Of a stretch of DNA of 64,000 nt, positions 1,566-63,480 are shown in pieces. The notes below the pieces were generated by a model. The model was not told the origin of the DNA. It was given only the letters and a program-made list of their open reading frames with translations, and ran no database searches. Every line of letters starts with the position of its first letter. Position 1 is the stretch's first letter. Location: IMG/VR virus record IMGVR_UViG_3300031718_000177. One strand, given 5' to 3'. This DNA comes from a virus (Duplodnaviria; Heunggongvirae; Uroviricota; Caudoviricetes). The translations under genes and the position numbers were made by a program.

Positions 1566-1928
1566 TTATCGTTCATTTTCCCAATTATCGTTGTAATAGA
1601 GTTTCCCATCAACCCCTTGCACCATAATCACAGTTTTTATAGGGAACCAGTTCTGGATTTCTGGTTTCTTTTTGACTAACTCAACAATATCTTTCCAATC
1701 CGTAGAGTCCGTTTCAATATAGGAGGTACATCTAAGTCCGTTCTTATTGACGAACATTACACGATATAGTTTTTTGGTGCTTTCGTTGTGCATACGCTTT
1801 CGTTCCCTTTCTTTTCGCTGCCTTTTCATAATTCGCAATAGTAAATCTGTTGGATTATTCCTTTGTAAAAGTTCTGCGTCAAGTTCATCTAGCGACTTGT
1901 AAAGCTGAATCGCCTTGATTAAGTTCAT
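1566..1928 (-). CDS. hypothetical protein
   Basis: 120-aa ORF in the minus-strand gene chain; basic Arg/Lys-rich segment. Confidence 0.45.
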   Translation of the reverse strand: MNLIKAIQLYKSLDELDAELLQRNNPTDLLLRIMKRQRKERERKRMHNESTKKLYRVMFVNKNGLRCTSYIETDSTDWKDIVELVKKKPEIQNWFPIKTVIMVQGVDGKLYYNDNWENER

Positions 1929-2631
1929 TCTGCACCCACTCTTCCCAATCCCTTTGCCATTGTTGCATATCTAGGCCATATGCTTCTTTAATTGCCTTCG
2001 TCCAACTTCGATTTTTACCCATTTCGATGAATGATACAAATACCTTCGGGCCGTTGCGTTGGAGGAGGTATTCCACCGCTAATGATGATTGACTGTAGAA
2101 TCTTTCATTTACTTCATTGTTATTTGTATAATCAGCTTGCATCAAAGTACGCAACCGAGGGCATAATTCTACATGTGGATAATGCTTGTGGAAGCGATCC
2201 CGTTCCTCGGCTACCTCATTGAGTTCCATATGGATAGCACAGCCCTCATCTAGCCATCGGGGTGTAACACCAAAACGGTCAGCGAATAATAGATGATTGA
2301 CTTCGTGAGGTATAATATGATCGAGAATGAAATCTAACTTTGCGTCTGAACTAAGTTTACCATCTATGATTAGATTCATGTTTCTGAGCGGACGATCCCT
2401 ATATGTTACTTTAGCACCATTTGCATCTCCAAACCATATTTGGCATTTGGTTCGCCAATTAGGCAAGGAATGCCCAAACCAATAAATAGCTTGGGAAGTT
2501 CGGCATGCTTCCGCTCTCTCAACAATCCGTGTCGCGTATGCTTTATCACGAATATCAAAAGAGAAGTTAGGCGATTCAGCAGCGAATAGATTAGTTGGGA
2601 TTAGGATTATTAGGAGGGGAAGAAGACGCAT
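1885..2631 (-). CDS. secreted zinc metallopeptidase (HExxH)
   Basis: N-terminal signal peptide MRLLPLLIILIPTNLFAAE; HEVNH zinc-binding motif followed by a downstream LDEG. Confidence 0.6.
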   Translation of the reverse strand: MRLLPLLIILIPTNLFAAESPNFSFDIRDKAYATRIVERAEACRTSQAIYWFGHSLPNWRTKCQIWFGDANGAKVTYRDRPLRNMNLIIDGKLSSDAKLDFILDHIIPHEVNHLLFADRFGVTPRWLDEGCAIHMELNEVAEERDRFHKHYPHVELCPRLRTLMQADYTNNNEVNERFYSQSSLAVEYLLQRNGPKVFVSFIEMGKNRSWTKAIKEAYGLDMQQWQRDWEEWVQNELNQGDSALQVAR

Positions 2632-2749
2632 GTTGAATCACCAATGAACATTTATAGATATACATCCCCCGCATAGGAAAAACGTGAGTACACCTAGAAT
2701 TGCGACACCGACAAGTATCTCTGACCAGTGATAACTACCAGAAGTGCCT

Positions 2750-3331
2750 TTATCCAATAGGTTTAGCAGTAGAAGAATTGTTGCTACTGTTAGGAAGATC
2801 GGGATTTTCCACCACATCTTTTTTCACATCTTTCCTACACAAAAGATGTCCTTTGGCTTCAAGTTTAGCGAAACTCTCTGTGAAGACACGCTTAAAGAGG
2901 TTGATTGACCATCTGCACGTAGCCATCTCGTCCTTGTGTAAGGCGTGTCCGACTTCATGTAAGTACACCAGTACAGAAAATCTCCCGTCGCTCTCACGCT
3001 CTAAAATTATCACATTTCCTGTTGGAAAGTAGCAGCTTCCAGTAGCGAACTTATCTACAAAGACAAGCTGGGGTTCTTCTATACGATAGATTGCCGATAA
3101 CTCAGCGTTTAGCTGCCGAAACTTCTCTTGCTGATTTCCTTCCCACGGTTTACTTTTCTTAAACTTCTTTAGAACTGCTAACGTATCTTCCCTAAATCTA
3201 AGGTTATCATCGATAACCTCGGCTACCGTTTGGGGATACGGGTTTTTCTCTTGTAATTTACGTTGTTTTCGCTTTAACAACTTGCCTAAGATGTAATCTT
3301 CAATTCTCTCTTCAATCTTATTCATGTTCAT
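2750..3331 (-). CDS. putative zinc metallopeptidase (HExxH)
   Basis: VLVYLHEVGHALH motif; no signal peptide. Confidence 0.5.
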   Translation of the reverse strand: MNMNKIEERIEDYILGKLLKRKQRKLQEKNPYPQTVAEVIDDNLRFREDTLAVLKKFKKSKPWEGNQQEKFRQLNAELSAIYRIEEPQLVFVDKFATGSCYFPTGNVIILERESDGRFSVLVYLHEVGHALHKDEMATCRWSINLFKRVFTESFAKLEAKGHLLCRKDVKKDVVENPDLPNSSNNSSTAKPIG

Positions 3332-3620
3332 AGTGCCTTCATCATACCATTTCCGTAAGAAAAGTCAATCCCCCTATTAGCCGCGATTCTGTTCTATCTT
3401 GCGATAGCTGCCGTCATTTCTCTCATGTTTTTCAACATGGTGGGGTCTTTACGACTTTACCACTGCACCTACCAGCTTCACTGTGCAACTCACACACTCA
3501 GCTATTTGGCTTGCACGCTTCGCAGTTCAAACGAGTTTTAACTCTCCTACGAGGGGTTGTGTGTCGCGAACTTTCCCTCTATGGCTTACGCCACAGCGAC
3601 AGCACCGGAGGATTGACTTT

Positions 3621-4586
3621 TCACTCCTTCAACTCAAACCTTGTTTTCACTCTTTCTGGCGGCACAATATTGTACTGTAATTCCCAAGGATATATTAACT
3701 CTAAATCAACGTCCTGTAACATCGGAAACGGTTGTTGGAACGGTACATCTCGGTTGATTTTCACTTTATCCAGATTCACTATTGTTGAGATATAACCAGT
3801 CCCCACAGGAACCATTCTGGTTATCTCAGAAATATATCCATCTAGGAAGCAATACTGTTTCATCCTAGAGCGTATTTCGTTGCTAAATAACAAGGTAGCT
3901 GTTGTATCCCACATATATTGGCCGTATGGCACTTCTAACATTCTTTCCCACGATTTCCCATTAAATCCATAAATGCCAGTAAAGTAATAATGGAAAATAT
4001 AGTTCTCTTCAATCTTATGCCCGTTTTGAATTATAGATTTAAGCGGACCATAAACAGGAACTAACTTCGTCAAAACTATTTGCTTCTCCCATTCAGCACG
4101 TCTTTTATTATATGCTATTTGAGCTTCTTCCTGTTTTTTTCTAACTATGATATTGAAATAAACATTACCAGTCCTCTCTGGCGGCTTCCATCCTTCAACT
4201 AGTCCTTCGGAGTAAAGAGATACAGAAGGGTCAGTGTGCGCTACGTCTATCATAACTCTAAGTGTTAAAAGCGGGAAGCTCGTTGTCAGAAACGCACGGT
4301 CATCAAACGATTCCCAATGATTATAGGTCTTCAACTTAAATGCCGGGAACTTCTTTACACCGGCGGTATTCTCTGAACTTTGTGGCACATATATGATGTT
4401 ATAATAGTCATGTAAGGAGTTGGATAGCAGTGCTAAATCCGTTGCCCCATACTTCTCCCATTTCCTTTCCAATTCCGCTTGTAGCATTTTTGAATTGGGG
4501 CTATCATCAATCGCTATATAAATAGTTTTCTTATTATCTGCCAGTGCGGGAGTTGTCAATAAAAGAAATAGCAGGATCGCTTTCAC
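3621..4586 (-). CDS. secreted protein, paralog A of a two-member family
   Basis: Signal peptide MKAILLFLLLTTPALA; shares blocks (RAFLTTSFPLLTL / KRAFSNTTFPLLTV, C-terminal P-rich W-E-x-QYN) with the ORF at 5604..6455. Confidence 0.6.
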   Translation of the reverse strand: MKAILLFLLLTTPALADNKKTIYIAIDDSPNSKMLQAELERKWEKYGATDLALLSNSLHDYYNIIYVPQSSENTAGVKKFPAFKLKTYNHWESFDDRAFLTTSFPLLTLRVMIDVAHTDPSVSLYSEGLVEGWKPPERTGNVYFNIIVRKKQEEAQIAYNKRRAEWEKQIVLTKLVPVYGPLKSIIQNGHKIEENYIFHYYFTGIYGFNGKSWERMLEVPYGQYMWDTTATLLFSNEIRSRMKQYCFLDGYISEITRMVPVGTGYISTIVNLDKVKINRDVPFQQPFPMLQDVDLELIYPWELQYNIVPPERVKTRFELKE

Positions 4587-4587
4587 A

Positions 4588-5619
4588 TCACTTGTGTTCT
4601 TTCATCACGCTATCGAAGAAATCAACTAACCAGTTCTTTTCGGGCATTTTATCCGTTTCATATAAAGGTCGCCACTCGGGCCAAAGTACATCTTCTAGGT
4701 TGTTCAAGTGGAGCAGCTTAGGATTGCTTTTCAGATCAGCGATGCCAAAACCTGACCTTTTGATAAAGGCACCAACTTCGCCAGTCGTTGTCGTGCCATA
4801 ATATTGATAGCCACCATAAGCATAAGCTGTGCCAGGATAATTCGCACTTGGTTTTGGTTCTTCGAGTTTATCGGCAAGTGATTTACCATCTGCATATCGC
4901 TTGAAGAAATAACACAAGCCCAAACTGTGCATAAGATTTGTCTTTAAGTTACTTATGTCTCCGGTTTGATAAACATAATTTGCCAATATGCTAAAACTAT
5001 GTCCGCTATTTCTGACGTAACCAGAAAATACATAATGTAGGGCTTGGAAGAAATGTATTTTGGGATTTTTCTCCAATAACTTAACAATCAACCAAGGTAT
5101 TTGGGGTGTGCTATCGGCAAAACGATAACAACACAAAGCGGCATAGACACAATGTCTGCTTGCTCCTTTACCGTGAATAGTACAGTAGTTCCCTCCGTCT
5201 TTGGATTCAGCCGTGGTGCTTAACGGCATTAGGCCATGTTCTTTACAAAGTTCTACCCATCTGAGAAACTCAGTCGATGGAAGCACGCTCTTTAATGGTT
5301 GCTGCGGGGGTTCTACTTGCCAACCACCCATACCGTTCTGGATAAATTGCCCCTTACTATCCTTCATGTATATCGGTACTGAATTAGGGCGGCAGTTATA
5401 GATATAATCATTAAGTTTTCTGGTATAAGTTACATTTCCAAAGCACGCCGCATTTACCATTTCCGTTACTAAGGGTGGGTCATCATATGAAGTAAGTTTC
5501 ATCGATACATAATCGGTTGCAGGGGCAGCAAAGGGGATGGAGATATCGTACCAGTGGTTAGTCATCTTAATCTTTCGTAATTTGGTTAAGAACTTATACA
5601 ACACTATTCTTCTATACAA
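4588..5619 (-). CDS. hypothetical protein, aromatic-rich, flanked by the two secreted paralogs
   Basis: 343-aa ORF; no signal peptide; W/Y/F-rich composition compatible with an alpha/alpha-toroid enzyme. No family assigned. Confidence 0.55.
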   Translation of the reverse strand: MYRRIVLYKFLTKLRKIKMTNHWYDISIPFAAPATDYVSMKLTSYDDPPLVTEMVNAACFGNVTYTRKLNDYIYNCRPNSVPIYMKDSKGQFIQNGMGGWQVEPPQQPLKSVLPSTEFLRWVELCKEHGLMPLSTTAESKDGGNYCTIHGKGASRHCVYAALCCYRFADSTPQIPWLIVKLLEKNPKIHFFQALHYVFSGYVRNSGHSFSILANYVYQTGDISNLKTNLMHSLGLCYFFKRYADGKSLADKLEEPKPSANYPGTAYAYGGYQYYGTTTTGEVGAFIKRSGFGIADLKSNPKLLHLNNLEDVLWPEWRPLYETDKMPEKNWLVDFFDSVMKEHK

Positions 5620-6455
5620 TCGGATGGAAAATAATTATACTGAGGTTCCCAAGGCGGTAAAGGTTGCCTGTAAACCTTGGGGAAAGGGGCTGGGGGTATG
5701 TTGATGTCGGGTACTTTTAATTCATCGCTATTTTCATAACTCCCAAAGCCAATCAATCTTACTACTTTACCATAAACCACATGGTATTCAAGTGATTTAT
5801 CTTTCATGTACACCTTGGATGTTCTTGCGTCAATAGGTTCGCCACTGTAAACACAGTGCCATCTATTATCCTTGAAACAGTAAATAGCAGTAATTCCTTT
5901 AATCCATAGATATTGCTCGAACTTATACACTTTACGTAATCTCAAGTTTGTATCTTTAGCGAATTGGAAAAGATCACCGGTATATTTCTCCATTACTGCT
6001 GTCTGCTCTTCATCATATTGTTCGTTAATAAGGTCAATTTGCTTTAGGTCAAGATAGTATTTTACAGTTAGCAAAGGGAAAGTAGTGTTTGAGAACGCTC
6101 TTTTGTCCAGAACAATCCATTCGGAACGACGGCTATATTTAATTGCTGGACCAGGGAGCGTTACATCAGTTATATAATGTAGATTAGCCCGCCGTTTAAT
6201 CTCAGCAGAGACCGCATTATAGTGAAGCAAAGTTGGTTCGTTATCTTTATTTCTGAATGGTGTATTCAACCAATTTCTGGTTAGTTCATTCTTTAAGAAC
6301 TTTGCTTCGTTACTGTTATCTAGCCCTATGAACAGGTCTATCTTCTTTTCGCGTTCCTTCTTAGTAAGGCGTGGACGCAACGGAAAGATAGGACCAATTG
6401 CTTGTGTTTGGCTAGTGAGTAACAAAAAGACAAACATAGAAACAATAAACTTCAT
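5604..6455 (-). CDS. secreted protein, paralog B of the two-member family
   Basis: Signal peptide MKFIVSMFVFLLLTSQTQA; paralogous to 3621..4586. Confidence 0.6.
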   Translation of the reverse strand: MKFIVSMFVFLLLTSQTQAIGPIFPLRPRLTKKEREKKIDLFIGLDNSNEAKFLKNELTRNWLNTPFRNKDNEPTLLHYNAVSAEIKRRANLHYITDVTLPGPAIKYSRRSEWIVLDKRAFSNTTFPLLTVKYYLDLKQIDLINEQYDEEQTAVMEKYTGDLFQFAKDTNLRLRKVYKFEQYLWIKGITAIYCFKDNRWHCVYSGEPIDARTSKVYMKDKSLEYHVVYGKVVRLIGFGSYENSDELKVPDINIPPAPFPKVYRQPLPPWEPQYNYFPSDCIEE

Positions 6456-6469
6456 GTAGTAGATATGTT

Positions 6470-6560
6470 AAATGCTCAAAAAAGCTAGACACTCTCATTT
6501 CGGCCCTGCCTACCCCCATTTTATGGAGAAGGTCGCGAGTTATGTCTAGCTTGTTTCGAG
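6470..6560 (-). terminator. large stem-loop followed by a U-tract downstream of the acidic-protein gene
   Basis: GCTAGACA...(about 55 nt)...TGTCTAGC stem, then TTTTTTGAGCATTT on the minus strand. Confidence 0.4.
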
Positions 6561-6570
6561 CACTTCTTGA

Positions 6571-6774
6571 TTAGTCGTCTTCGTCTTCGTCCTCTTCGTC
6601 GTCGTCGTCGAGGTCTTCTTCTTCGTCGTCGTCGAGGTCGTCTTCGTCCTCGTCGTCGAAGTCGTCTTCGCCCTCAGCGTCATCCTCTTCTTCATCGAAG
6701 AGAGGGTGATCGAATTGCTGCGTTACAACATCGTCATCGTCATAAACATCGGAACCGTGACCAAAGCCGTTCAT
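6571..6774 (-). CDS. small extremely acidic protein (poly-Asp/Glu)
   Basis: 67 aa, about 60% D/E (…DEEEDDAEGEDDFDDEDEDDLDDDEEEDLDDDDEEDEDEDD). Own promoter and terminator. The plus-strand Arg-rich ORF 6567..6851 is its mirror image. Confidence 0.55.
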   Translation of the reverse strand: MNGFGHGSDVYDDDDVVTQQFDHPLFDEEEDDAEGEDDFDDEDEDDLDDDEEEDLDDDDEEDEDEDD

Positions 6775-11719: not shown

Positions 11720-12760
11720 CTATGTCATCTTTTGGAATGTCACTATATCGCTATTACGTCGTGTTACCTGGACGTTACCAGGAAACGTGGCGGAACCACC
11801 ATCTCTAAAGAGATGATACATTTTTTGCCAATGTTCGCAAGTGAGTTTTCCAATCTCCCACTCCACTCCTTGCCAAAACTTAATCAGCACTTCTTTAGCA
11901 AGATAGGGATGTTGAGCCATAATGGGACCGGTGGGAAGTCTGTAGCTACCGTCCTTATATTGGTCTAGTTTTTTATCAAACATACGGTGGAGCACTTTTG
12001 ATACTTCTTTATCAATGAAATCCCTTACGTCCTCTGCTTGATTACCTAAGTTGGTTAAAGCTGATTTAACTTGAACGTTGTAATTACTTAATAGAGGCAA
12101 TAGCTCTTTTCTAATACGATTACGGGCATAATCCATTGAATCGTTGCTGGAATCGGTTCTAAAAGATTGTCCTTTAGATTCCAGATAAGATAACACTTCT
12201 TCTCGCGTACAGTTAAGCATCGGTCTAATGAGTTTAACATCATCATTTAACCAACGGATAGCTGGCATACCGGCAAGCCCTTTAACGCCAGTGCCGCGAA
12301 TAATACGAAATAAAATTGTTTCTGCTTGGTCATCTGCGGTATGAGCTACGGCTACATAGTCGCATTCGTGAATATCTGCCTCTTTCTCAAATGTTTTATA
12401 TCGGATATATCTCGCAGCTTCCTCGATACCATTACCGCGTTTTTCTGCTAATGCTTTAACATCGCAATCGACGATAACGCAACTTATTTTAAGATTGCTA
12501 CATAAATCTCCAACAAACCGGGCATCTTCATCTGATTCTTTGCCCCGTAGTTGATGATTGATATGGCAAGCGATTGGAGCAAGGCTATATTCGTCCCGTA
12601 GTTCATTTAAGGTAAGCAGCAAGGATACGCTATCGGCACCGCCAGATACGCCAACTAGGATTCTGCCGCCTGCAACTTCTGGCTGCATCGCATGCGGATC
12701 GCCTTCAATTTTATTCTCTTTCAAGAACTTATAAATCGGAAACAGCGTGTTCATGGTCAT
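11720..12760 (-). CDS. tilS: tRNA(Ile)-lysidine synthetase
   Basis: PP-loop ILVGVSGGADSVSLL (SGGxDS) and HINHQLRG block typical of TilS; 346 aa. Confidence 0.85.
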   Translation of the reverse strand: MTMNTLFPIYKFLKENKIEGDPHAMQPEVAGGRILVGVSGGADSVSLLLTLNELRDEYSLAPIACHINHQLRGKESDEDARFVGDLCSNLKISCVIVDCDVKALAEKRGNGIEEAARYIRYKTFEKEADIHECDYVAVAHTADDQAETILFRIIRGTGVKGLAGMPAIRWLNDDVKLIRPMLNCTREEVLSYLESKGQSFRTDSSNDSMDYARNRIRKELLPLLSNYNVQVKSALTNLGNQAEDVRDFIDKEVSKVLHRMFDKKLDQYKDGSYRLPTGPIMAQHPYLAKEVLIKFWQGVEWEIGKLTCEHWQKMYHLFRDGGSATFPGNVQVTRRNSDIVTFQKMT

Positions 12761-16504: not shown

Positions 16505-16622
16505 TGAAACACCTTTCTTTGAGAAAAAACTGACTGCCTATTATATAGGCATCTCCTTTAATAATTGCCCGCTTCCGAGTTGAACGGAAATCGCGAGGGT
16601 CAGAACCTCGTGTGTTAGCCAA

Positions 16623-16946
16623 TTACACCAACGGGCCACCATCATCCTCAAACCGCATAAGTTCGAGATTTTCCATATACCAATCAATCTTACTTTGTAT
16701 ATTAAAATAACAACTTAATAGATTATGTACACCTTTCCACGACTTTTGTTCTCTAATAGCAAATACCAACATATGGCTCGCGTCAATACCTATGATGTGC
16801 ATATGAAAAAACTTACCTATCTTCAGGTTCCGTTCTATGTAAATCTCAGCATCTTCTATTTCCTTGACGCGATATAACTTCCAAGATACATTCTTGTGAT
16901 AAACTCCCTTGTCATATTCGATTAAGGTAAGGCTAGATGCCGCCAT
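16623..16946 (-). CDS. hypothetical protein
   Basis: 107-aa ORF. Confidence 0.45.
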   Translation of the reverse strand: MAASSLTLIEYDKGVYHKNVSWKLYRVKEIEDAEIYIERNLKIGKFFHMHIIGIDASHMLVFAIREQKSWKGVHNLLSCYFNIQSKIDWYMENLELMRFEDDGGPLV

Positions 16947-57891: not shown

Positions 57892-59380
57892 GTTTACTCT
57901 GGAGGAAATTGGTGAACTTCAATAGTTCTTTGCCAACCGAGGCTAATTTCCACGCTCGGTAATTATCCTTATCATATTGATTATGTTTTTCTTCGTCTGG
58001 GTTGTAATGTTGCTCTACCGCTTGACGCCAAACTTGAAGATTTTGTTGTATGAGTTTCATCGCTGCTTGTGGTAAGTTGGCCATCACCTCCTTTTCGGAT
58101 ATCTCGCCTTTGCCGTATAAGCCAAAGAAATTACCCATATAGTTTGCAGCCGATGTTGATGTGTTTCTAGGTTCTTTCAGTATAAAATTACACCAAAATG
58201 CGGCATCTTCCCGATATCTCGATGCGGCGTGATAACCTAAGTTAATCATAAACGTGCCTTGTGGATAAACTTTTACGTAGTCGGCAGTTTCGCCTTGAAC
58301 CTTGGGGGCTTTACCGAAACCCAATAATGTACAAATCTGCTGAATAAGCATCTGTGTATATCGGCCTCTATCTTGTCTAAAATTGTTCGGGTTAGCAAGA
58401 TAAGTGTGAATATTTGATATCATCCTTTCTAAATTGCTATCTAGAGTTTCTTCATCATCGAGTGGAATTTCAAAGTTTTCAGTATGGTAATCATGCCCGT
58501 GTTGCAGTGAGAGAAAGATTTGACCTCTTAAAGAGTGTCTTAATATATTTTTCTCGTGCGGCTCGGATGGTTCTTCGTAATTCAACGACAAAGTTCCGGA
58601 CATTCCATTTATTTCACCTCTTGCGGTCATACGAACTCTGTTTCTGTAGGAACTATCCCTTGCCATACTAGTACGATGGTCTTGAAAGATAGCTTCGCCT
58701 AATTTGTTCAGCATTCGTGTTGCTAGATTTTTATAGATATTTACCGGACTAACTTGGAACTTTTCAAGCTGCGTAAATGCCATTGGATTTAATATAACCA
58801 CCTGGGATGGTTCGTTGCTGTGGATTATAGAATCTCCGTCATCGATAAGAGCATCAAAGCCACCTGCCTTCTTAAAGAGTTTGTTCCAAGTTATGTTTTT
58901 TTGCCAATTATGATAACGACCACTGGGGGCATATTTTTCATATTGGGCATTTACGGCTTTATCCATAGTTTGCCAGAGGAAATGACCTGCTTTTGCAACT
59001 ATACCAGGGCGCTGGTGGGTAGCATGTTGACGATATTCACCAATTCCCATCTTATCAATTAAGTTATCGGCCTCTGTGTGGGTCAATTTGGATAGGTTTA
59101 GAACTTTGGCATTGTCTTTAAGTTTCAGGATGAATGTATAGGGCATCCCGAAGAAATGACTATTTCTATTAAATGTCTTATTCAGCACATAGGATTTTGG
59201 AAATGTAAAGATACCTACTGGGTCCGTATGAGTAGGATTAGGGTTGATGCCTACCTTATCGACATTACTAAAATGCACCAATACATCATCAGGTTGGTTC
59301 CGTAAATAGTCGAATAGTTTAGGTAAATAGTCAGATACAGCCTCCAAAATATTCTGTTCTAGCCAATTCTTAAATTGCAT
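57881..59380 (-). CDS. hypothetical protein
   Basis: 499-aa ORF, no recognised motifs. Confidence 0.55.
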   Translation of the reverse strand: MQFKNWLEQNILEAVSDYLPKLFDYLRNQPDDVLVHFSNVDKVGINPNPTHTDPVGIFTFPKSYVLNKTFNRNSHFFGMPYTFILKLKDNAKVLNLSKLTHTEADNLIDKMGIGEYRQHATHQRPGIVAKAGHFLWQTMDKAVNAQYEKYAPSGRYHNWQKNITWNKLFKKAGGFDALIDDGDSIIHSNEPSQVVILNPMAFTQLEKFQVSPVNIYKNLATRMLNKLGEAIFQDHRTSMARDSSYRNRVRMTARGEINGMSGTLSLNYEEPSEPHEKNILRHSLRGQIFLSLQHGHDYHTENFEIPLDDEETLDSNLERMISNIHTYLANPNNFRQDRGRYTQMLIQQICTLLGFGKAPKVQGETADYVKVYPQGTFMINLGYHAASRYREDAAFWCNFILKEPRNTSTSAANYMGNFFGLYGKGEISEKEVMANLPQAAMKLIQQNLQVWRQAVEQHYNPDEEKHNQYDKDNYRAWKLASVGKELLKFTNFLQSKLGR

Positions 59381-60277
59381 AAATATATATATAGTATGAA
59401 AATTATTATCGCTCTTATGCTTCTATTCTGTGCTTCTACTGCCCTGGCTCAGGATATAAAGCTTGAAGGAAAAGGGTCCGTTGGACATATCTCAGGATAT
59501 GCAGGGGCATCAAAATGGAATATTAGAATGCTTGTACTACGGCACTGCCCAGATGAGAACGGTGTTAGTGATGCCGCATTAGCGATGCAAGCCGCTAATT
59601 TAGGAGCCTCCAAGGGATTACACATTAAAGACCTTGGCGATTTTCGCGTGAATAGCGAGGGACTAACGGGTACCGAAGCCAAATTCGCATGGAACGAGCA
59701 AAAATATACTGGGGAAAGCCTCAAAGAGTTTATTGGTCGAGAGATGAAAGTTGATGCTAGGCCGGGCGATACATTTATTGTATATACCATCGGACATGGC
59801 GGAGAAGATGGCGGTATGGCAACATTAGGACAAAGAAGCGACTTTATGAATATTGTTGCTTCATTAAGCGAAGAGCAAAAACAGAGAACATTATGGTGGC
59901 AAATGAGTTGTCATGCGGCTGCATGTCTGCCGCCTATTTCGTCGCTGCCTGAAAAAGGACAAAAGTTATTCACCATGATTGCTAGTTCTACTGCCGAAAA
60001 TCTCAGTTATTTCGGCGTTGAGGGCGAAATCCTACAACAATTATTTGTTGCCTTAGCAGAAAATAGTCCATCTATAAATCCAAATAGAGGCAATACTATC
60101 ACTGCCGATGATTTGCGTGGGTTTCTTCTTTCAATAAATAGCGGAATAGATAAACTAGTTTTCGCCAGAAGTGGCGATACGGTAATATTTGGCGTTGGCG
60201 GATTCCCTCATGTACCTATTGTAGACGAGAATAATCCTCAAGGCACTTATCCTGATGACTACGTAACAGTGCCGTGA
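59375..60277 (+). CDS. secreted caspase-like (clan CD) cysteine peptidase (likely start at 59396, MKIIIALMLL…)
   Basis: Signal peptide MKIIIALMLLFCASTALA; His in TFIVYTIGHGG and Cys in TLWWQMSCHAAA, spaced as in clan CD peptidases. Confidence 0.55.
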   Translation: MHKYIYSMKIIIALMLLFCASTALAQDIKLEGKGSVGHISGYAGASKWNIRMLVLRHCPDENGVSDAALAMQAANLGASKGLHIKDLGDFRVNSEGLTGTEAKFAWNEQKYTGESLKEFIGREMKVDARPGDTFIVYTIGHGGEDGGMATLGQRSDFMNIVASLSEEQKQRTLWWQMSCHAAACLPPISSLPEKGQKLFTMIASSTAENLSYFGVEGEILQQLFVALAENSPSINPNRGNTITADDLRGFLLSINSGIDKLVFARSGDTVIFGVGGFPHVPIVDENNPQGTYPDDYVTVP

Positions 60278-62259: not shown

Positions 62260-63480
62260 CTAAAATGATGGTGACAATAATTTCTCAGTTCTACGACGAC
62301 CACTGCCACAAACGGCTGTAACCTTATCGTCTCCATGAGCGTTAATTCGGACGTGTCCCGTCCTATTTTTCCCTAAGTTTTCAATTAAACTTTGGCGATT
62401 AAAAGCAAAATCTTTAATGTTATTTGCGGCTAATACATCCCTATCATGTGTCCTACCGCATTCGCATGTCCATTCTCTTTCGTTAAGTTTAAGGTTACTG
62501 TTGATTTTGCCACAACTACACATTTTACTGCTCGGCTCAAATCTACCAATTTGTAAAATATTGCTTCCATACCACTCACCCTTGTATTGAAGCATCCTTA
62601 CGAAATTGCTCCAACCAGCCGAGGATATTGAATATGCTAAATTGTGATTCTGCAACATTTCCTTTACACTTAAATCTTCAAGACAAATAGATTGGTTCTC
62701 TCGTATTAGTCTTGTTGATAACTTTTGTAAGAAGTCATTTCTTTGATTTGCTACTTTTTCGTGAAGTAAAGCTAACTTCAATCTTGCTTTCTCTCTGCGA
62801 TTGCTGCCTTTTACTTTTCTATCTTTCCATCGTGAAAATAGTTTCAATTTATCTGCGGATTTCTCTAAGTATTTAGGATTTTCTACTCTCTCGCCAGTGG
62901 ACAGAGTAATAAAATGTCTCAGTCCCAAGTCAATTCCGATTGCTTTCTTTCTATCCGGTTTCCTTTTCTTTTTTGGTTGTTCAGTTGTTTCAACCACTAC
63001 CGAAGCAAAATATTTATTTGTCGGCGTCTTACTTATAGTAACTGTTTTAATCGTCCCGTTAAACTTGCGATGCAATGTTGCTTTAATATTTTTGATTTTT
63101 GGTACAGTAATTGTTTCCTTATCAAAATCTACTTTGTTACTTTGCGGACACTGGAACGACTGGTAACTTGATTTCTTCTTAAACTTTGGGAAACCATTCT
63201 TCTCTCGGAAGAAACGAGTATAAGCGTTGTCCAAGTTTCTTAATGCCATTTGTAGCGACTGGGCATTAACTTCGGTAAGCCATTCTATTTTTTGTTTCAA
63301 TTTAGTTAATTCGCCGTTCAGGTCTATACAAGATAGACCTTTCTTTGTTTCTTTATATGTTTGTATTTTAGTTTCTAGCCCCCAATTGTAAACAAATCTT
63401 GAACAACCAAAATGTTTGCTGAAAAGTGCCTTCTGTTCTTCTGTGGGATAAATCCTATATTTGTACGCTTTCAATATCAT
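62260..63480 (-). CDS. tnpB: IS200/IS605-family TnpB (OrfB), intact
   Basis: RuvC-I IGIDLG, RuvC-II ICLEDLSVKEM, zinc finger CSCGK…CECG, RuvC-III RDVLAANNI; 406 aa. Confidence 0.85.
   Translation of the reverse strand: MILKAYKYRIYPTEEQKALFSKHFGCSRFVYNWGLETKIQTYKETKKGLSCIDLNGELTKLKQKIEWLTEVNAQSLQMALRNLDNAYTRFFREKNGFPKFKKKSSYQSFQCPQSNKVDFDKETITVPKIKNIKATLHRKFNGTIKTVTISKTPTNKYFASVVVETTEQPKKKRKPDRKKAIGIDLGLRHFITLSTGERVENPKYLEKSADKLKLFSRWKDRKVKGSNRREKARLKLALLHEKVANQRNDFLQKLSTRLIRENQSICLEDLSVKEMLQNHNLAYSISSAGWSNFVRMLQYKGEWYGSNILQIGRFEPSSKMCSCGKINSNLKLNEREWTCECGRTHDRDVLAANNIKDFAFNRQSLIENLGKNRTGHVRINAHGDDKVTAVCGSGRRRTEKLLSPSF

What the first reader, a model, noticed from the sequence alone, without database searches (positions are those of the whole stretch)
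1885..6455. Cluster of Sec-signal-peptide proteins in a phage: secreted HExxH peptidase plus two paralogous secreted proteins flanking an aromatic-rich enzyme-like ORF
Three ORFs here start with textbook signal peptides: 1885..2631 (HEVNH metallopeptidase), 3621..4586 and 5604..6455 (mutual paralogs). They flank a cytoplasmic-looking 343-aa W/Y-rich ORF and a second HExxH protein (2750..3331). Phage-encoded proteins exported by the host Sec system are uncommon. They suggest an extracellular or periplasmic function such as envelope remodelling, superinfection exclusion, polysaccharide degradation or matrix remodelling.
Basis: partly seen in the sequence, partly recalled or inferred. Interest (0 to 1): 0.6.

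Follow-up and report, generated by a model that had tools for sequence, protein, structure and literature searches.

The report
Exported phage proteins beside a metallopeptidase
A probable giant phage carries, within 4.6 kb, a zinc peptidase and two related proteins of a previously undescribed phage-only family, all with bacterial export signals, so they most likely act in the host cell envelope; what they do there is still unknown.

Summary
ORFs A (1885-2631), C (3621-4586) and E (5604-6455), all on the minus strand, start with short cleavable Sec-type signal peptides. They have no lipobox and no further membrane segment. Only one other such protein exists among about 116 ORFs in the window.

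- **A** is a gluzincin (HEVNH plus Glu129 in WLDEGCA), just above the Pfam Peptidase_MA_2 cut-off.
- **C and E** are full-length paralogs. They define an unannotated family of 69 clusters: signal peptide, IYIAxDD, S..L..ELTRDW, PAxK..W..D.RAF..PL.T, and a proline-rich C-terminal PPWE tail. All eight sequence-distinct contexts read were phage or prophage. In a 176-kb phage contig a signal-peptide-bearing trypsin-like peptidase lies 6.6 kb away.
- **D**, the ORF between them, is not exported and probably starts at codon 19 (325 aa). It belongs to an unrelated nine-protein family with no detectable fold relative, and looks like a passenger.
- **B** is a weakly supported cytoplasmic zincin.

Function is inferred only. 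I favour periplasmic action on the envelope (exclusion or remodelling) over lysis.

Unexpectedly, the "intergenic" gap 3361-3616 holds a shrunken RNase P RNA. It keeps P1-P4 and the conserved core regions CR-I and CR-V but has almost no specificity domain.

The parts
1885..2631 (-). ORF A, 248 aa: exported gluzincin metallopeptidase precursor. HEVNH is at aa 109-113 (nt 2293-2307). The likely third zinc ligand is Glu129 in WLDEGCA. The mature protein is about 231 aa with 4 Cys.
   Evidence: PF13485, 34.6 bits, cut-off 32.4; weak M9; weak flagellinolysin.
2581..2631 (-). Signal peptide of A (aa 1-17, MRLLPLLIILIPTNLFA|AE).
   Evidence: The -3 residue is Leu, which is less canonical than in C and E.
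2638..2817 (-). Possible 59-aa gene for a small protein with two TM segments (aa 1-19 and 30-48). It overlaps the 3' end of B by 68 nt and stops 6 nt before the ATG of A. The contig's gene caller did not call it.
   Evidence: No homolog was found. Its status is uncertain.
2750..3325 (-). ORF B, 191 aa (193 aa from the ATG at 3331): cytoplasmic HExxH (HEVGH) protein, a putative minimal zincin.
   Evidence: DUF6782, E=0.011, below cut-off; PHROG peptidase families, E=0.02-0.08. One weak hit among 50,697 phage records.
3341..3368 (-). Sigma-70-like promoter match (TTGACT-16-TATGAT with an extended TG) just upstream of B. Its -35 hexamer lies in the 3' strand of the RNase P-like P1 helix.
   Evidence: This is a consensus match only; the count in the region is not above shuffles.
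3361..3616 (-). RNase P RNA-like gene, 256 nt, bacterial type A catalytic core. The specificity domain is replaced by about 51 nt. It lies inside the finding's interval but is not part of the exported-protein set.
   Evidence: RF00010, 42.8 bits against a gathering score of 100, E=7.7e-11, model positions 1-367. P1 10/10, P2 7/7, P3 7/7 with a GUAA loop, and P4 with a bulged U; fold z = -3.3.
3621..4586 (-). ORF C, 321 aa: exported member of the new ELTRDW/PPWE family. The signal peptide is aa 1-16 (nt 4539-4586, ALA|DN). The GTG start lies 1 nt after the stop codon of D.
4588..5565 (-). ORF D, 325 aa from the ATG at 5565: non-exported protein of a separate small family (motif YAALCC[YF]R[WF]ADSTP...NPK.HFFQALHY...GHSF). 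No fold relative was found.
5604..6455 (-). ORF E, 283 aa: second exported member of the ELTRDW/PPWE family. The signal peptide is aa 1-19 (nt 6399-6455, TQA|IG).
6479..6551 (-). Inverted repeat (AAGCTAGAC ... GTCTAGCTTTTTT) followed by a T-run, between the acidic 67-aa ORF and E. It may be a terminator that sets E-D-C apart as a transcription unit.
   Evidence: Read directly from the sequence. The scan did not call it (long loop), so this is inference.

Best explanation
This is a stretch of accessory genes in a probable huge phage. It encodes three proteins that the host Sec system exports into the periplasm of a diderm host, where signal peptidase I cleaves them.

- **A** is a zinc endopeptidase of the gluzincin type. 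HEVNH supplies two His ligands and the catalytic Glu, and Glu129 in WLDEGCA supplies the third ligand.
- **C and E** are divergent paralogs of a phage-restricted, previously unannotated exported family. Its conserved residues (Glu38, Arg41, Trp43, Pro81, Phe99 in C numbering) sit in a roughly 120-aa N-terminal domain. A variable middle region follows, then a proline-rich tail ending in PPWE. I read C and E as binding proteins rather than enzymes.

Most likely mechanism (inferred): after export they change the envelope of the infected cell. A cleaves a periplasmic or envelope protein or peptide, and C and E bind envelope components. The purpose would be to exclude or blunt further attack, or to condition the envelope. 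This is the logic of T4 Spackle and T5 Llp, not that of the lysis machinery.

D, B and the RNase P-like RNA lie between these genes but are probably functionally unrelated.

Shown: the signal-peptide features, the peptidase motifs, the family and its phage-only contexts. Inferred: actual export, the cleavage sites, catalytic activity, the target and the biological role.
For: Signal peptides:
- The n, h and c regions and the -3/-1 rule are met by A, C and E, with no lipobox and no second TM segment.
- 55 of 67 remote relatives of C/E also carry a short uncharged hydrophobic N-terminus, typically about 9-12 residues, upstream of the ELTRDW motif.

Peptidase A:
- Pfam Peptidase_MA_2 above its cut-off, and weak M9/flagellinolysin similarity over the same region.
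- HEVNH plus WLDEGCA were read directly from the sequence.

C/E family:
- A profile search of 1.84 billion representatives gave 67 relatives beyond C and E, E from 5e-16 to 8e-4.
- The shared motifs extend to the C-terminal PPWE tail.
- No Pfam family matches any member.

Contexts, all phage or prophage:
- Several are huge-phage-like contigs carrying NUDIX, HNH, SmpB, SSB, RNR, PhoH, tRNA arrays or DNA ligase.
- Three are HK97-type or TerL/portal-type temperate phages.
- The neighbourhoods differ, as expected for a stand-alone accessory gene.

Peptidases near C/E-family genes:
- The window has A, with a signal peptide.
- L021 has a 725-aa Trypsin_2 protein with the signal peptide MKYILTTLILLIASTVSA|RE, 6.6 kb away.
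- L012 has a Peptidase_M28 gene, and L015/L016 have a Peptidase_C1 gene.

Phage origin: the window shares several other gene families with these contigs, one of which carries T4 gp13.
Against: - No experiment or dedicated predictor (SignalP) was available, so export is rule-based.
- A passes the Pfam cut-off by only 2 bits. It has no detectable relative in PDB sequences, IMG/VR, GTDB genomes or 50,697 phage records. Its -3 residue is Leu.
- The C/E fold is unknown. The AF2 model built from two sequences was useless (pLDDT 31), so 'binding protein, not enzyme' is a guess. An invariant Glu could be catalytic.
- A and C/E co-occur only here. The peptidases near other family members belong to different families, at different distances, and one of them (C1) has no signal peptide.
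- In three temperate relatives the gene lies just upstream of packaging genes. In two of them it sits next to a small TM protein, a peptidase and a lipoprotein, which is where lysis cassettes often sit.
- The host, and therefore its envelope type, is unknown.
- No virion or packaging gene lies in the window.
Confidence: 0.5

Rival explanations
1. Lysis-associated proteins. The exported peptidase A, with the small two-TM protein just upstream acting as a holin-like partner, degrades the cell wall or its anchoring proteins. C and E would be periplasmic lysis accessories or regulators.
For: - In L015 and L016 the family member follows a small TM protein, a Peptidase_C1 protein and a 340-355-aa lipoprotein, immediately upstream of ParB-like, terminase-like, portal, protease and capsid genes.
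- In L018 it lies about 6 kb upstream of TerS, TerL and portal genes.
- In the window a 59-aa two-TM ORF ends 6 nt before the start of A.
- No recognisable endolysin lies elsewhere in the window.
Against: - No lysozyme, amidase, M15, M23 or transglycosylase domain, and no PHROG lysis family, is present in any of these loci.
- In the five large-phage contexts the gene sits among tRNA, nucleotide-metabolism or ligase genes, not next to holin- or endolysin-like genes.
- Peptidase_MA_2 is not a known endolysin family (own knowledge).
- The 59-aa ORF is uncalled and has no homolog.
Confidence: 0.2
2. There is no joint function. The cluster is a by-product of a local duplication (C/E) next to an unrelated exported peptidase in a region of shuffled accessory genes.
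For: - D, B and an RNA gene are interleaved. The D and C/E families never co-occur elsewhere, and A has no relative in any C/E locus.
- The clustering P of about 0.017 is post hoc and inflated by paralogy.
- A promoter-like site separates the B-A unit from the E-D-C unit.
Against: - Exported proteins are rare in this window (4 of about 116 ORFs).
- A second phage with a C/E-family gene also encodes a signal-peptide-bearing peptidase within 7 kb.
Confidence: 0.15
3. The N-terminal hydrophobic segments are uncleaved anchors, and the proteins are membrane-bound or virion-associated.
For: - E has an uncharged stretch of 24 residues, and a 19-residue window passes a TM threshold.
- Some relatives have longer N-terminal hydrophobic segments preceded by cytoplasmic extensions, for example P0037 and P0048.
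Against: - The hydrophobic cores in A, C, E and most relatives are about 8-12 residues. Polar or Pro-rich linkers and small -3/-1 residues follow.
- There is no similarity to any PHROG structural family.
Confidence: 0.08
4. The element is not a phage but a plasmid or chromosomal island, so exported proteins would be unremarkable.
For: The window has no capsid, portal, terminase or tail gene. It carries TnpB, DnaJ, SPFH, adenylate kinase and PP-loop genes that also occur in cells.
Against: - All eight sequence-distinct C/E-family contexts and the D-family contexts are phage-like. One D-family locus carries T4 gp13, and others carry portal, capsid or TerL genes.
- The window contains PHROG HNH endonucleases, a clamp loader, an exonuclease and an RNA ligase.
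- About 80% of ORFs are orphans in a one-strand, tightly packed array.
- Gene families are shared with those phage contigs.
Confidence: 0.07

Closest known systems
T4 Spackle (gp61.3) and T5 Llp: phage-encoded, Sec-exported periplasmic or outer-membrane proteins that mediate superinfection exclusion (PMC7677548, PMC7650644, PMC9586334)
   Same: These are small-to-medium phage accessory proteins with N-terminal export signals. They act in the envelope of the infected cell and are stand-alone genes outside structural modules.
   Different: There is no sequence similarity. Spackle is about 10 kDa and inhibits the gp5 lysozyme, and Llp is a lipoprotein that blocks FhuA. C and E are 28-35 kDa, have no lipobox and carry a distinctive Pro-rich PPWE tail. 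Their target and any exclusion activity are untested.
Gluzincin metallopeptidases of clan MA(E): Pfam Peptidase_MA_2 (PF13485), with M1 aminopeptidase-like HExxH-X18-E (WLNEGFA) and M9 collagenase/flagellinolysin as relatives
   Same: A has HEVNH and a downstream WLDEGCA glutamate. It scores above the PF13485 cut-off and aligns weakly to M9 and flagellinolysin over the catalytic region.
   Different: A is only about 231 aa when mature. The His-to-Glu spacer is 15 residues, against 18 in M1 (own count). It has no close relative in PDB, IMG/VR, GTDB or cultured phages. It is phage-encoded and exported, and its substrate is unknown.
Sec- or SAR-exported endolysins and two-component spanins (for example fOg44 Lys44, P1 Lyz, lambda Rz/Rz1; own knowledge)
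   Same: These are phage proteins that reach the periplasm through the host Sec system. A small TM protein lies next to an exported hydrolase.
   Different: No muralytic domain is present. There is no lipoprotein partner in the window. C and E have cleavable signal peptides rather than type II anchors, and they lack long coiled coils.
Minimal RNase P RNAs: type T of Thermoproteaceae (PMC3579882) and engineered E. coli C-domain-only ribozymes (PMC5839562). This comparison concerns the RNA gene at 3361-3616.
   Same: The catalytic domain is kept (P1-P4, CR-I, CR-V, a P15-like loop with GGU), and the specificity domain is almost entirely missing.
   Different: The core is bacterial type A, it is encoded by a probable phage, and it is only 256 nt. 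It scores 42.8 bits against a gathering score of 100. No relatives were found, so covariation could not be tested.

Membership tests
Sec-type (SPase I) signal peptide | Positively charged n-region, a 7-15-residue hydrophobic h-region, a polar c-region with small residues at -3 and -1, and no Pro at +1. | tested here: met
   A MR/LLPLLIILIP/TNLFA|A (the -3 Leu is marginal); C MK/AILLFLLL/TTPALA|D; E MK/FIVSMFVFLLL/TSQTQA|I.
Sec-type (SPase I) signal peptide | A positive score from a trained predictor (SignalP, DeepTMHMM), or experimental export. | not testable with these tools
   No predictor was available. Only my own rule-based script was used.
Lipoprotein (SPase II) signal peptide | Lipobox [LVI][ASTVI][GAS]C at the end of the h-region. 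| tested here: not met
   A, C and E have no Cys in or after the h-region.
Pfam Peptidase_MA_2 / gluzincin (clan MA(E)), for ORF A | Whole-protein score above the curated Pfam gathering cut-off. | tested here: met
   34.6 bits against 32.4, E=2.1e-8, aa 107-235 matched to profile positions 70-201 of 201. The margin is narrow.
Pfam Peptidase_MA_2 / gluzincin (clan MA(E)), for ORF A | HExxH zinc-binding and catalytic motif, plus a downstream Glu as third ligand. | tested here: met
   H109-E-V-N-H113, and E129 in WLDEGCA, which resembles the M1 WLNEGFA motif.
Pfam Peptidase_MA_2 / gluzincin (clan MA(E)), for ORF A | Zinc-dependent peptidase activity. | not testable with these tools
   This needs a biochemical assay.
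Zincin metallopeptidase, for ORF B | HExxH plus a family-level profile match above threshold. | tested here: inconclusive
   HEVGH is present. The best hits are below threshold: DUF6782 at 15.4 bits against 27, and PHROG peptidase families at E=0.02-0.08.
New ELTRDW/PPWE exported phage family (defined here), for ORFs C and E | N-terminal signal peptide; the strand [IL]Y[IV]xxDD; the helix S..L..EL[TE]R[DNK]W; PAxK..x.W...D.RAF...PL.T; and a C-terminal Pro-rich tail with P[PW]WE. | tested here: met
   The family HMM scores C at 152.5 bits and E at 169.6 bits. C has IYIAIDD, ELERKW, PAFKLKTYNHWESFDDRAFLTTSFPLLT and YPWELQYN. E has LFIGLDN, ELTRNW, PAIKYSRRSEWIVLDKRAFSNTTFPLLT and PPWEPQYN.
Thioredoxin-like fold (considered for the C/E N-terminal domain) | Profile or structural similarity to thioredoxin-fold proteins. 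| tested here: not met
   hhalign of the family profile against E. coli TrxA gave probability 0.3%. A profile search against PDB sequences found nothing. The AF2 model was unusable.
Phage lysis cassette (holin, endolysin, spanin) | A recognisable muralytic domain, a holin family match, or an i-spanin/o-spanin pair. | tested here: not met
   Searches found no such family in the window or in the related loci. Only positional and topological hints exist.
Bacterial RNase P RNA class A (RF00010), for the RNA at 3361-3616 | Catalytic core: P1-P4 with a bulged U in P4, CR-I (GAGGAAAGUC-like) and CR-V (ACAGAAnnCGGCU-like). | tested here: met
   P1 10/10, P2 7/7, P3 7/7, and P4 as A-U, G-C, bulged U, U.G, C-G, G-C, C-G, G-C. 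The conserved stretches are GAGGGAAAGUUCGCG and ACAGAAUCGCGGCUAA.
Bacterial RNase P RNA class A (RF00010), for the RNA at 3361-3616 | A specificity domain (P7-P14, CR-II/III) and a score at or above the Rfam gathering threshold. | tested here: not met
   42.8 bits against 100. About 51 nt replace the S-domain.

The most novel reading that the evidence does not exclude
The ELTRDW/PPWE proteins are a new class of phage periplasmic effectors that work together with phage-exported peptidases: MA_2 here, and a trypsin-like enzyme in a 176-kb phage contig that also carries a family member. They would act as substrate adaptors, inhibitors or immunity partners, docking through the PPWE tail. This would give large and temperate phages of diderm hosts a dedicated toolkit for proteolytic remodelling of the host envelope, for exclusion of rival phages or evasion of envelope-based defences.
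Probability: 0.15. Interest if true: 0.65.

Novelty: new variant of a known kind. Interest (0 to 1): 0.42.

Why it matters
Phage proteins that act in the periplasm, such as Spackle, Llp and Bor, are few, and most were found one at a time. Here a family of at least 69 sequence clusters, present in both huge and temperate phages and absent from Pfam, carries export signals and a conserved C-terminal docking-like motif. It sits next to an exported zinc peptidase that has no relative in cultured phages. If these proteins remodel or guard the envelope, they would open a testable route to how uncultured large phages control the surface of infected cells.

On its own, though, this is one more uncharacterised accessory module, and its function is not established.

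The by-product may matter more. A probable phage-encoded, catalytic-domain-only bacterial RNase P RNA lies in a region that also encodes an RNA ligase, and the window also carries a TilS-like PP-loop enzyme and a tRNA gene. In a syntenic phage contig, tRNA genes occupy the corresponding position.

Tried and rejected
- **blastn against cultured phages.** It seemed to link ORF D to Erwinia and Dickeya jumbo phages. The hits were really to the acidic D/E-repeat ORF at 6571-6774, because query coordinates were offset by 1499. This is low-complexity similarity only.
- **Searches with no hit.** tblastn of A, C, D and the 1228-aa ORF against 50,697 phage records found nothing. IMG/VR and GTDB scans with A, C, D and TnpB found no relatives, so no host clue was gained.
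- **Word-indexed search with C.** It returned only C itself. Only the full HMMER profile search revealed the family.
- **The search for related loci with the 47-sequence family alignment.** It failed because no stretch was conserved enough. A back-translated ELTRDWTK DNA pattern gave one chance hit in IMG/VR.
- **AF2 on the two-sequence C/E alignment.** It should have been run on the 69-member alignment.
- **afdb50 fold library.** It was unavailable.
- **Thioredoxin-fold idea for the C/E N-domain.** No support.
- **D as a partner of C/E.** Rejected. In other phages D-family genes occur as three tandem paralogs next to NAMPT and NUDIX genes, with no C/E member nearby.
- **Tat export of D from the upstream TTG start.** Rejected by inspection: the RR is followed by a charged, not hydrophobic, segment.
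- **Pattern scans for relatives of the small RNase P RNA.** Scans of IMG/VR and JGI metagenomes returned only chance hits inside ORFs. No RNase P match was found in L017, L021 or L022.
- **Literature.** Searches found no paper reporting a phage-encoded RNase P RNA and none mentioning PF13485. The searched library does not cover most subscription journals.

Full report
**1. What is in the interval**

All genes in window positions 1-52,000 run on the minus strand. In transcription order the region holds:
- E (6455-5604, 283 aa).
- D (5565-4588, 325 aa; the longest ORF begins at a TTG at 5619).
- C (4586-3621, 321 aa; its GTG start lies 1 nt after D's stop codon).
- A 289-nt gap.
- B (3325/3331-2750).
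- A possible 59-aa two-TM ORF (2817-2638).
- A (2631-1885, 248 aa).
- A 120-aa ORF, and then an RNA ligase gene (1218-556).

The sequences around the starts were read. The window is part of ENA ERZ27256860 contig k141_3387926 (292,671 bp). That contig's gene calls agree with these ORFs, except that the 59-aa ORF is not called.

**2.

A rule-based scan looked for a positive n-region, an uncharged hydrophobic core, small -3/-1 residues, no lipobox and no further TM segment. It gives clean cleavable signal peptides for three ORFs:
- A: LFA|AE, cut after residue 17.
- C: ALA|DN, cut after residue 16.
- E: TQA|IG, cut after residue 19.

Among about 116 greedy ORFs in the window, only one other protein of at least 200 aa has this pattern (59375-60277, + strand). 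The other hydrophobic N-termini belong to small or multi-TM proteins. Three of four such genes within six consecutive genes has a permutation probability of about 0.017. That figure is post hoc and inflated, because C and E are paralogs.

No trained predictor was available, so export itself is inferred.

**3. ORF A**

- Pfam Peptidase_MA_2 scores 34.6 bits against a cut-off of 32.4, covering aa 107-235. There is weak Peptidase_M9 similarity and weak flagellinolysin similarity in NCBIfam.
- The sequence shows H109-E-V-N-H113, and sixteen residues after H113 comes E129 within WLDEGCA. This resembles the third-ligand motif WLNEGFA of M1 gluzincins (own knowledge).
- A has no relative detectable by phmmer in PDB sequences, by pattern plus tblastn in IMG/VR or GTDB genomes, or by tblastn at E<=1 in 50,697 phage records.
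- I read A as a small, divergent, exported gluzincin. Its substrate is unknown.

**4. ORFs C and E**

- BLASTP links their N-terminal ~140 residues (27% identity, E=2e-9). MAFFT aligns them end to end with shared C-terminal motifs.
- C alone is an orphan in the word-indexed 5.8-billion-protein search.
- A two-sequence profile searched with full HMMER against 1.84 billion representatives found 67 further proteins, with E from 5e-16 to 8e-4.
- The family signature runs as follows:
  - a short hydrophobic N-terminus (55 of 67);
  - a strand [IL]Y[IV]xxDD;
  - a helix S..L..ELTRDW (60 of 67; Glu and Trp are invariant in the 47-sequence alignment);
  - a variable insert;
  - PAxK..G.Y..W...D.RAF...T.PL.T;
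  - a variable C-terminal half;
  - a proline-rich tail ending in PPWE, FPWE or LPYE, often at the very C-terminus.
- No member matches any Pfam family at E<=0.001; three isolated one-member hits at E 0.004-0.007 are noise, and C and E have no meaningful PHROG or NCBIfam match. A family profile finds nothing in PDB sequences.
- The window has exactly two copies.

**5. Where the family lives**

I read eight sequence-distinct genomic contexts, and all are phage or prophage.

| Locus | Context |
|---|---|
| L012-L014 | 32% GC, up to 89 kb; NUDIX, HNH, SmpB, PTH2, Peptidase_M28 |
| L017 | SSB, dCMP deaminase, RNR, dUTPase, PhoH, tRNAs |
| L021 | 176-kb contig; gene sits directly after tRNA genes inside an array of at least 25 tRNAs, followed by a 68-aa ORF and an RNA ligase as in the window; NAMPT nearby |
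| L022 | DNA ligase, TnpB, sigma factor |
| L018 | TerS, TerL, portal and ClpP genes downstream |
| L016 | 64% GC; Peptidase_C1, lipoprotein, family member, then portal, S78 protease and HK97 capsid |
| L015 | The same module inside a 1-Mb bacterial contig with secretin, BON and DUF1579 genes, that is, a prophage |

The window shares several other gene families with these contigs and with the D-family contigs, one of which encodes T4 gp13. This is the main support for calling the source a large phage. The window itself contains no virion or packaging gene. It does contain PHROG HNH endonucleases, a clamp loader, an exonuclease, an RNA ligase, TnpB and a large majority of orphan ORFs.

**6. ORF D is a passenger**

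- D has one direct homolog (37% identity). With a four-sequence profile, nine proteins are found in all.
- In the best-sampled relative, three D-family paralogs (264, 243 and 281 aa) sit in tandem between NAMPT and NUDIX genes, in a contig with T4 gp13. None has a signal peptide.
- D-family and C/E-family genes never co-occur outside this window.
- The AF2 model from nine sequences is reasonable (pLDDT 75.6, pTM 0.80) but has no fold relative:
  - Foldseek against PDB gives best E=1.
  - BFVD returns only uncharacterised phage proteins at TM about 0.37.
- The conserved positions are L106, C107, Y141, R148, F172, Q174, H189 and Y302.
- D is not unusually aromatic compared with C and E.

**7. 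ORF B and the 59-aa ORF**

B has HEVGH, no signal peptide, and only sub-threshold similarity to putative metallopeptidase families.

The 59-aa ORF has two predicted TM segments and ends 6 nt before A's start, inside A's GGTGA ribosome-binding region. It overlaps B by 68 nt and has no homolog, so it remains a candidate only.

**8. How it most likely works**

- *Shown:* export-signal features, peptidase motifs, and a phage-restricted family with a conserved domain and tail.
- *Inferred:* SecYEG export, cleavage by signal peptidase I, and action in the periplasm of a diderm host. The short signal peptides of 16-19 residues fit that host type (own knowledge).

The family occurs as a single, highly divergent gene in changing neighbourhoods. 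It is found in both virulent-looking huge phages and temperate phages, and it is duplicated here. I therefore favour an envelope-level conflict role, such as exclusion of rival phages, masking or processing of envelope components, or protection from envelope-based defence. T4 Spackle and T5 Llp are the conceptual precedents (PMC7677548, PMC7650644, PMC9586334).

A would supply proteolysis. Exported or neighbouring peptidases recur near family members: Trypsin_2 with a signal peptide in L021, M28 in L012 and C1 in L015/L016. These peptidases are heterogeneous, however, so the link stays a hypothesis.

The main rival is a lysis role. In L015/L016 the family member follows a small TM protein, a peptidase and a lipoprotein, just upstream of the packaging genes. 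The lipoprotein carries a CQHC motif that looks thioredoxin-like by eye. Against this, no muralytic, holin or spanin family is detectable in any locus, and the large-phage contexts are not lysis-like.

**9. By-product: an RNase P RNA-like gene**

The 289-nt gap between C and B matches Rfam bacterial RNase P class A on the coding strand at 3361-3616. The score is 42.8 bits with E=7.7e-11 for a 9-kb search, the match spans model positions 1-367, and the family's gathering score is 100.

By direct pairing:
- P1 is 10/10, P2 is 7/7 and P3 is 7/7 with a GUAA loop.
- P4 reproduces the bacterial architecture, including the bulged U. It has compensated base pairs relative to E. coli P4 as I recall it, CGCG/CGCG in place of CCGGG/CCCGG.
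- CR-I (GAGGGAAAGUUCGCG) and CR-V (ACAGAAUCGCGGCUAA) are present.
- Also present are a GGU in a P15-like loop and several GNRA-capped hairpins.
- About 51 nt replace the whole specificity domain.

The fold z-score is -3.3.

The C-domain of E. coli RNase P RNA alone is catalytic, at reduced efficiency (PMC5839562). Natural S-domain-less forms are known in Thermoproteaceae (PMC3579882).

I found no relatives by pattern scans, so covariation is untested. I also found no paper describing a phage-encoded RNase P RNA in the searched library. The surroundings fit a role in phage tRNA processing: an RNA ligase about 2 kb downstream, a TilS-like PP-loop protein and a tRNA-Gln further along the window, and tRNA genes at the equivalent position in L021.

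**10. Verdict**

The exported-protein reading holds, while the 'enzyme-like centre' and polysaccharide ideas do not.
- The finding is a new variant of a known kind, namely phage-encoded exported envelope-acting accessory proteins. It brings a newly delineated family, but its function is unproven.
- Interest is moderate. The RNase P-like RNA deserves its own follow-up.

Noticed in passing
window 3361-3616 (minus strand): A 256-nt match to bacterial RNase P RNA class A (42.8 bits, E=7.7e-11). P1-P4, the bulged U of P4, CR-I and CR-V are intact, but the specificity domain is replaced by about 51 nt. If functional, it would be a phage-encoded, catalytic-domain-only RNase P RNA. No relatives and no literature precedent were found.
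   Followed up: partly
window 59375-60277 (+ strand): The fourth clean signal-peptide protein in the window: 300 aa, MKIIIALMLLFCASTALA|QD. It is on the opposite strand near TnpB, has no NCBIfam hit, and was not matched by the ELTRDW/PPWE (C/E) family profile.
   Followed up: partly
window 6571-6774 (minus strand): A 67-aa ORF that is almost pure Asp/Glu in its C-terminal two-thirds, followed by an inverted repeat and a T-run. It caused spurious blastn hits to acidic-repeat proteins of Erwinia and Dickeya jumbo phages.
   Followed up: yes
L004:9210-11579 (also L003, L005, L006, L008): Three tandem paralogs of the ORF D family (264, 243 and 281 aa) lie between a NAMPT gene and a NUDIX gene, in a phage contig that also encodes T4 gp13. 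The placement next to NAD-salvage genes may hint at the family's role.
   Followed up: partly
L016:8122-10627 and L015:7968-10612: A conserved module in high-GC temperate phage or prophage sequence. It comprises a Peptidase_C1 protein without a signal peptide, a 340-355-aa lipoprotein containing a CQHC / LPAVLYF stretch that looks thioredoxin-like by eye, and then the ELTRDW/PPWE family member. It lies just upstream of the packaging genes. The L015 host contig carries secretin, BON and DUF1579 genes.
   Followed up: partly
L021:1-20855: A 176-kb phage contig with at least 25 tRNA genes and a tmRNA-like hit within 20 kb. It also holds a 725-aa Trypsin_2 protein with a signal peptide, NAMPT, and the same order as the window: family member, small ORF, RNA ligase.
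   Followed up: partly
window 62260-63480 (minus strand), with a second phrog_506 match elsewhere in the window: An IS605-type TnpB (OrfB_IS605 with a Cas12f-like TNB domain, PHROG E=1.9e-120) lies inside the putative phage. No close relative was found in GTDB representative genomes, so it gave no host clue.
   Followed up: partly
window 11720-12760, 16564-16638, 556-1218: A set of genes related to translation and RNA repair: a TilS-like PP-loop protein (E=4e-56), tRNA-Gln(CUG) and an RNA ligase. Elsewhere in the window there are adenylate kinase, DnaJ, SPFH and SprT-like genes.
   Followed up: no
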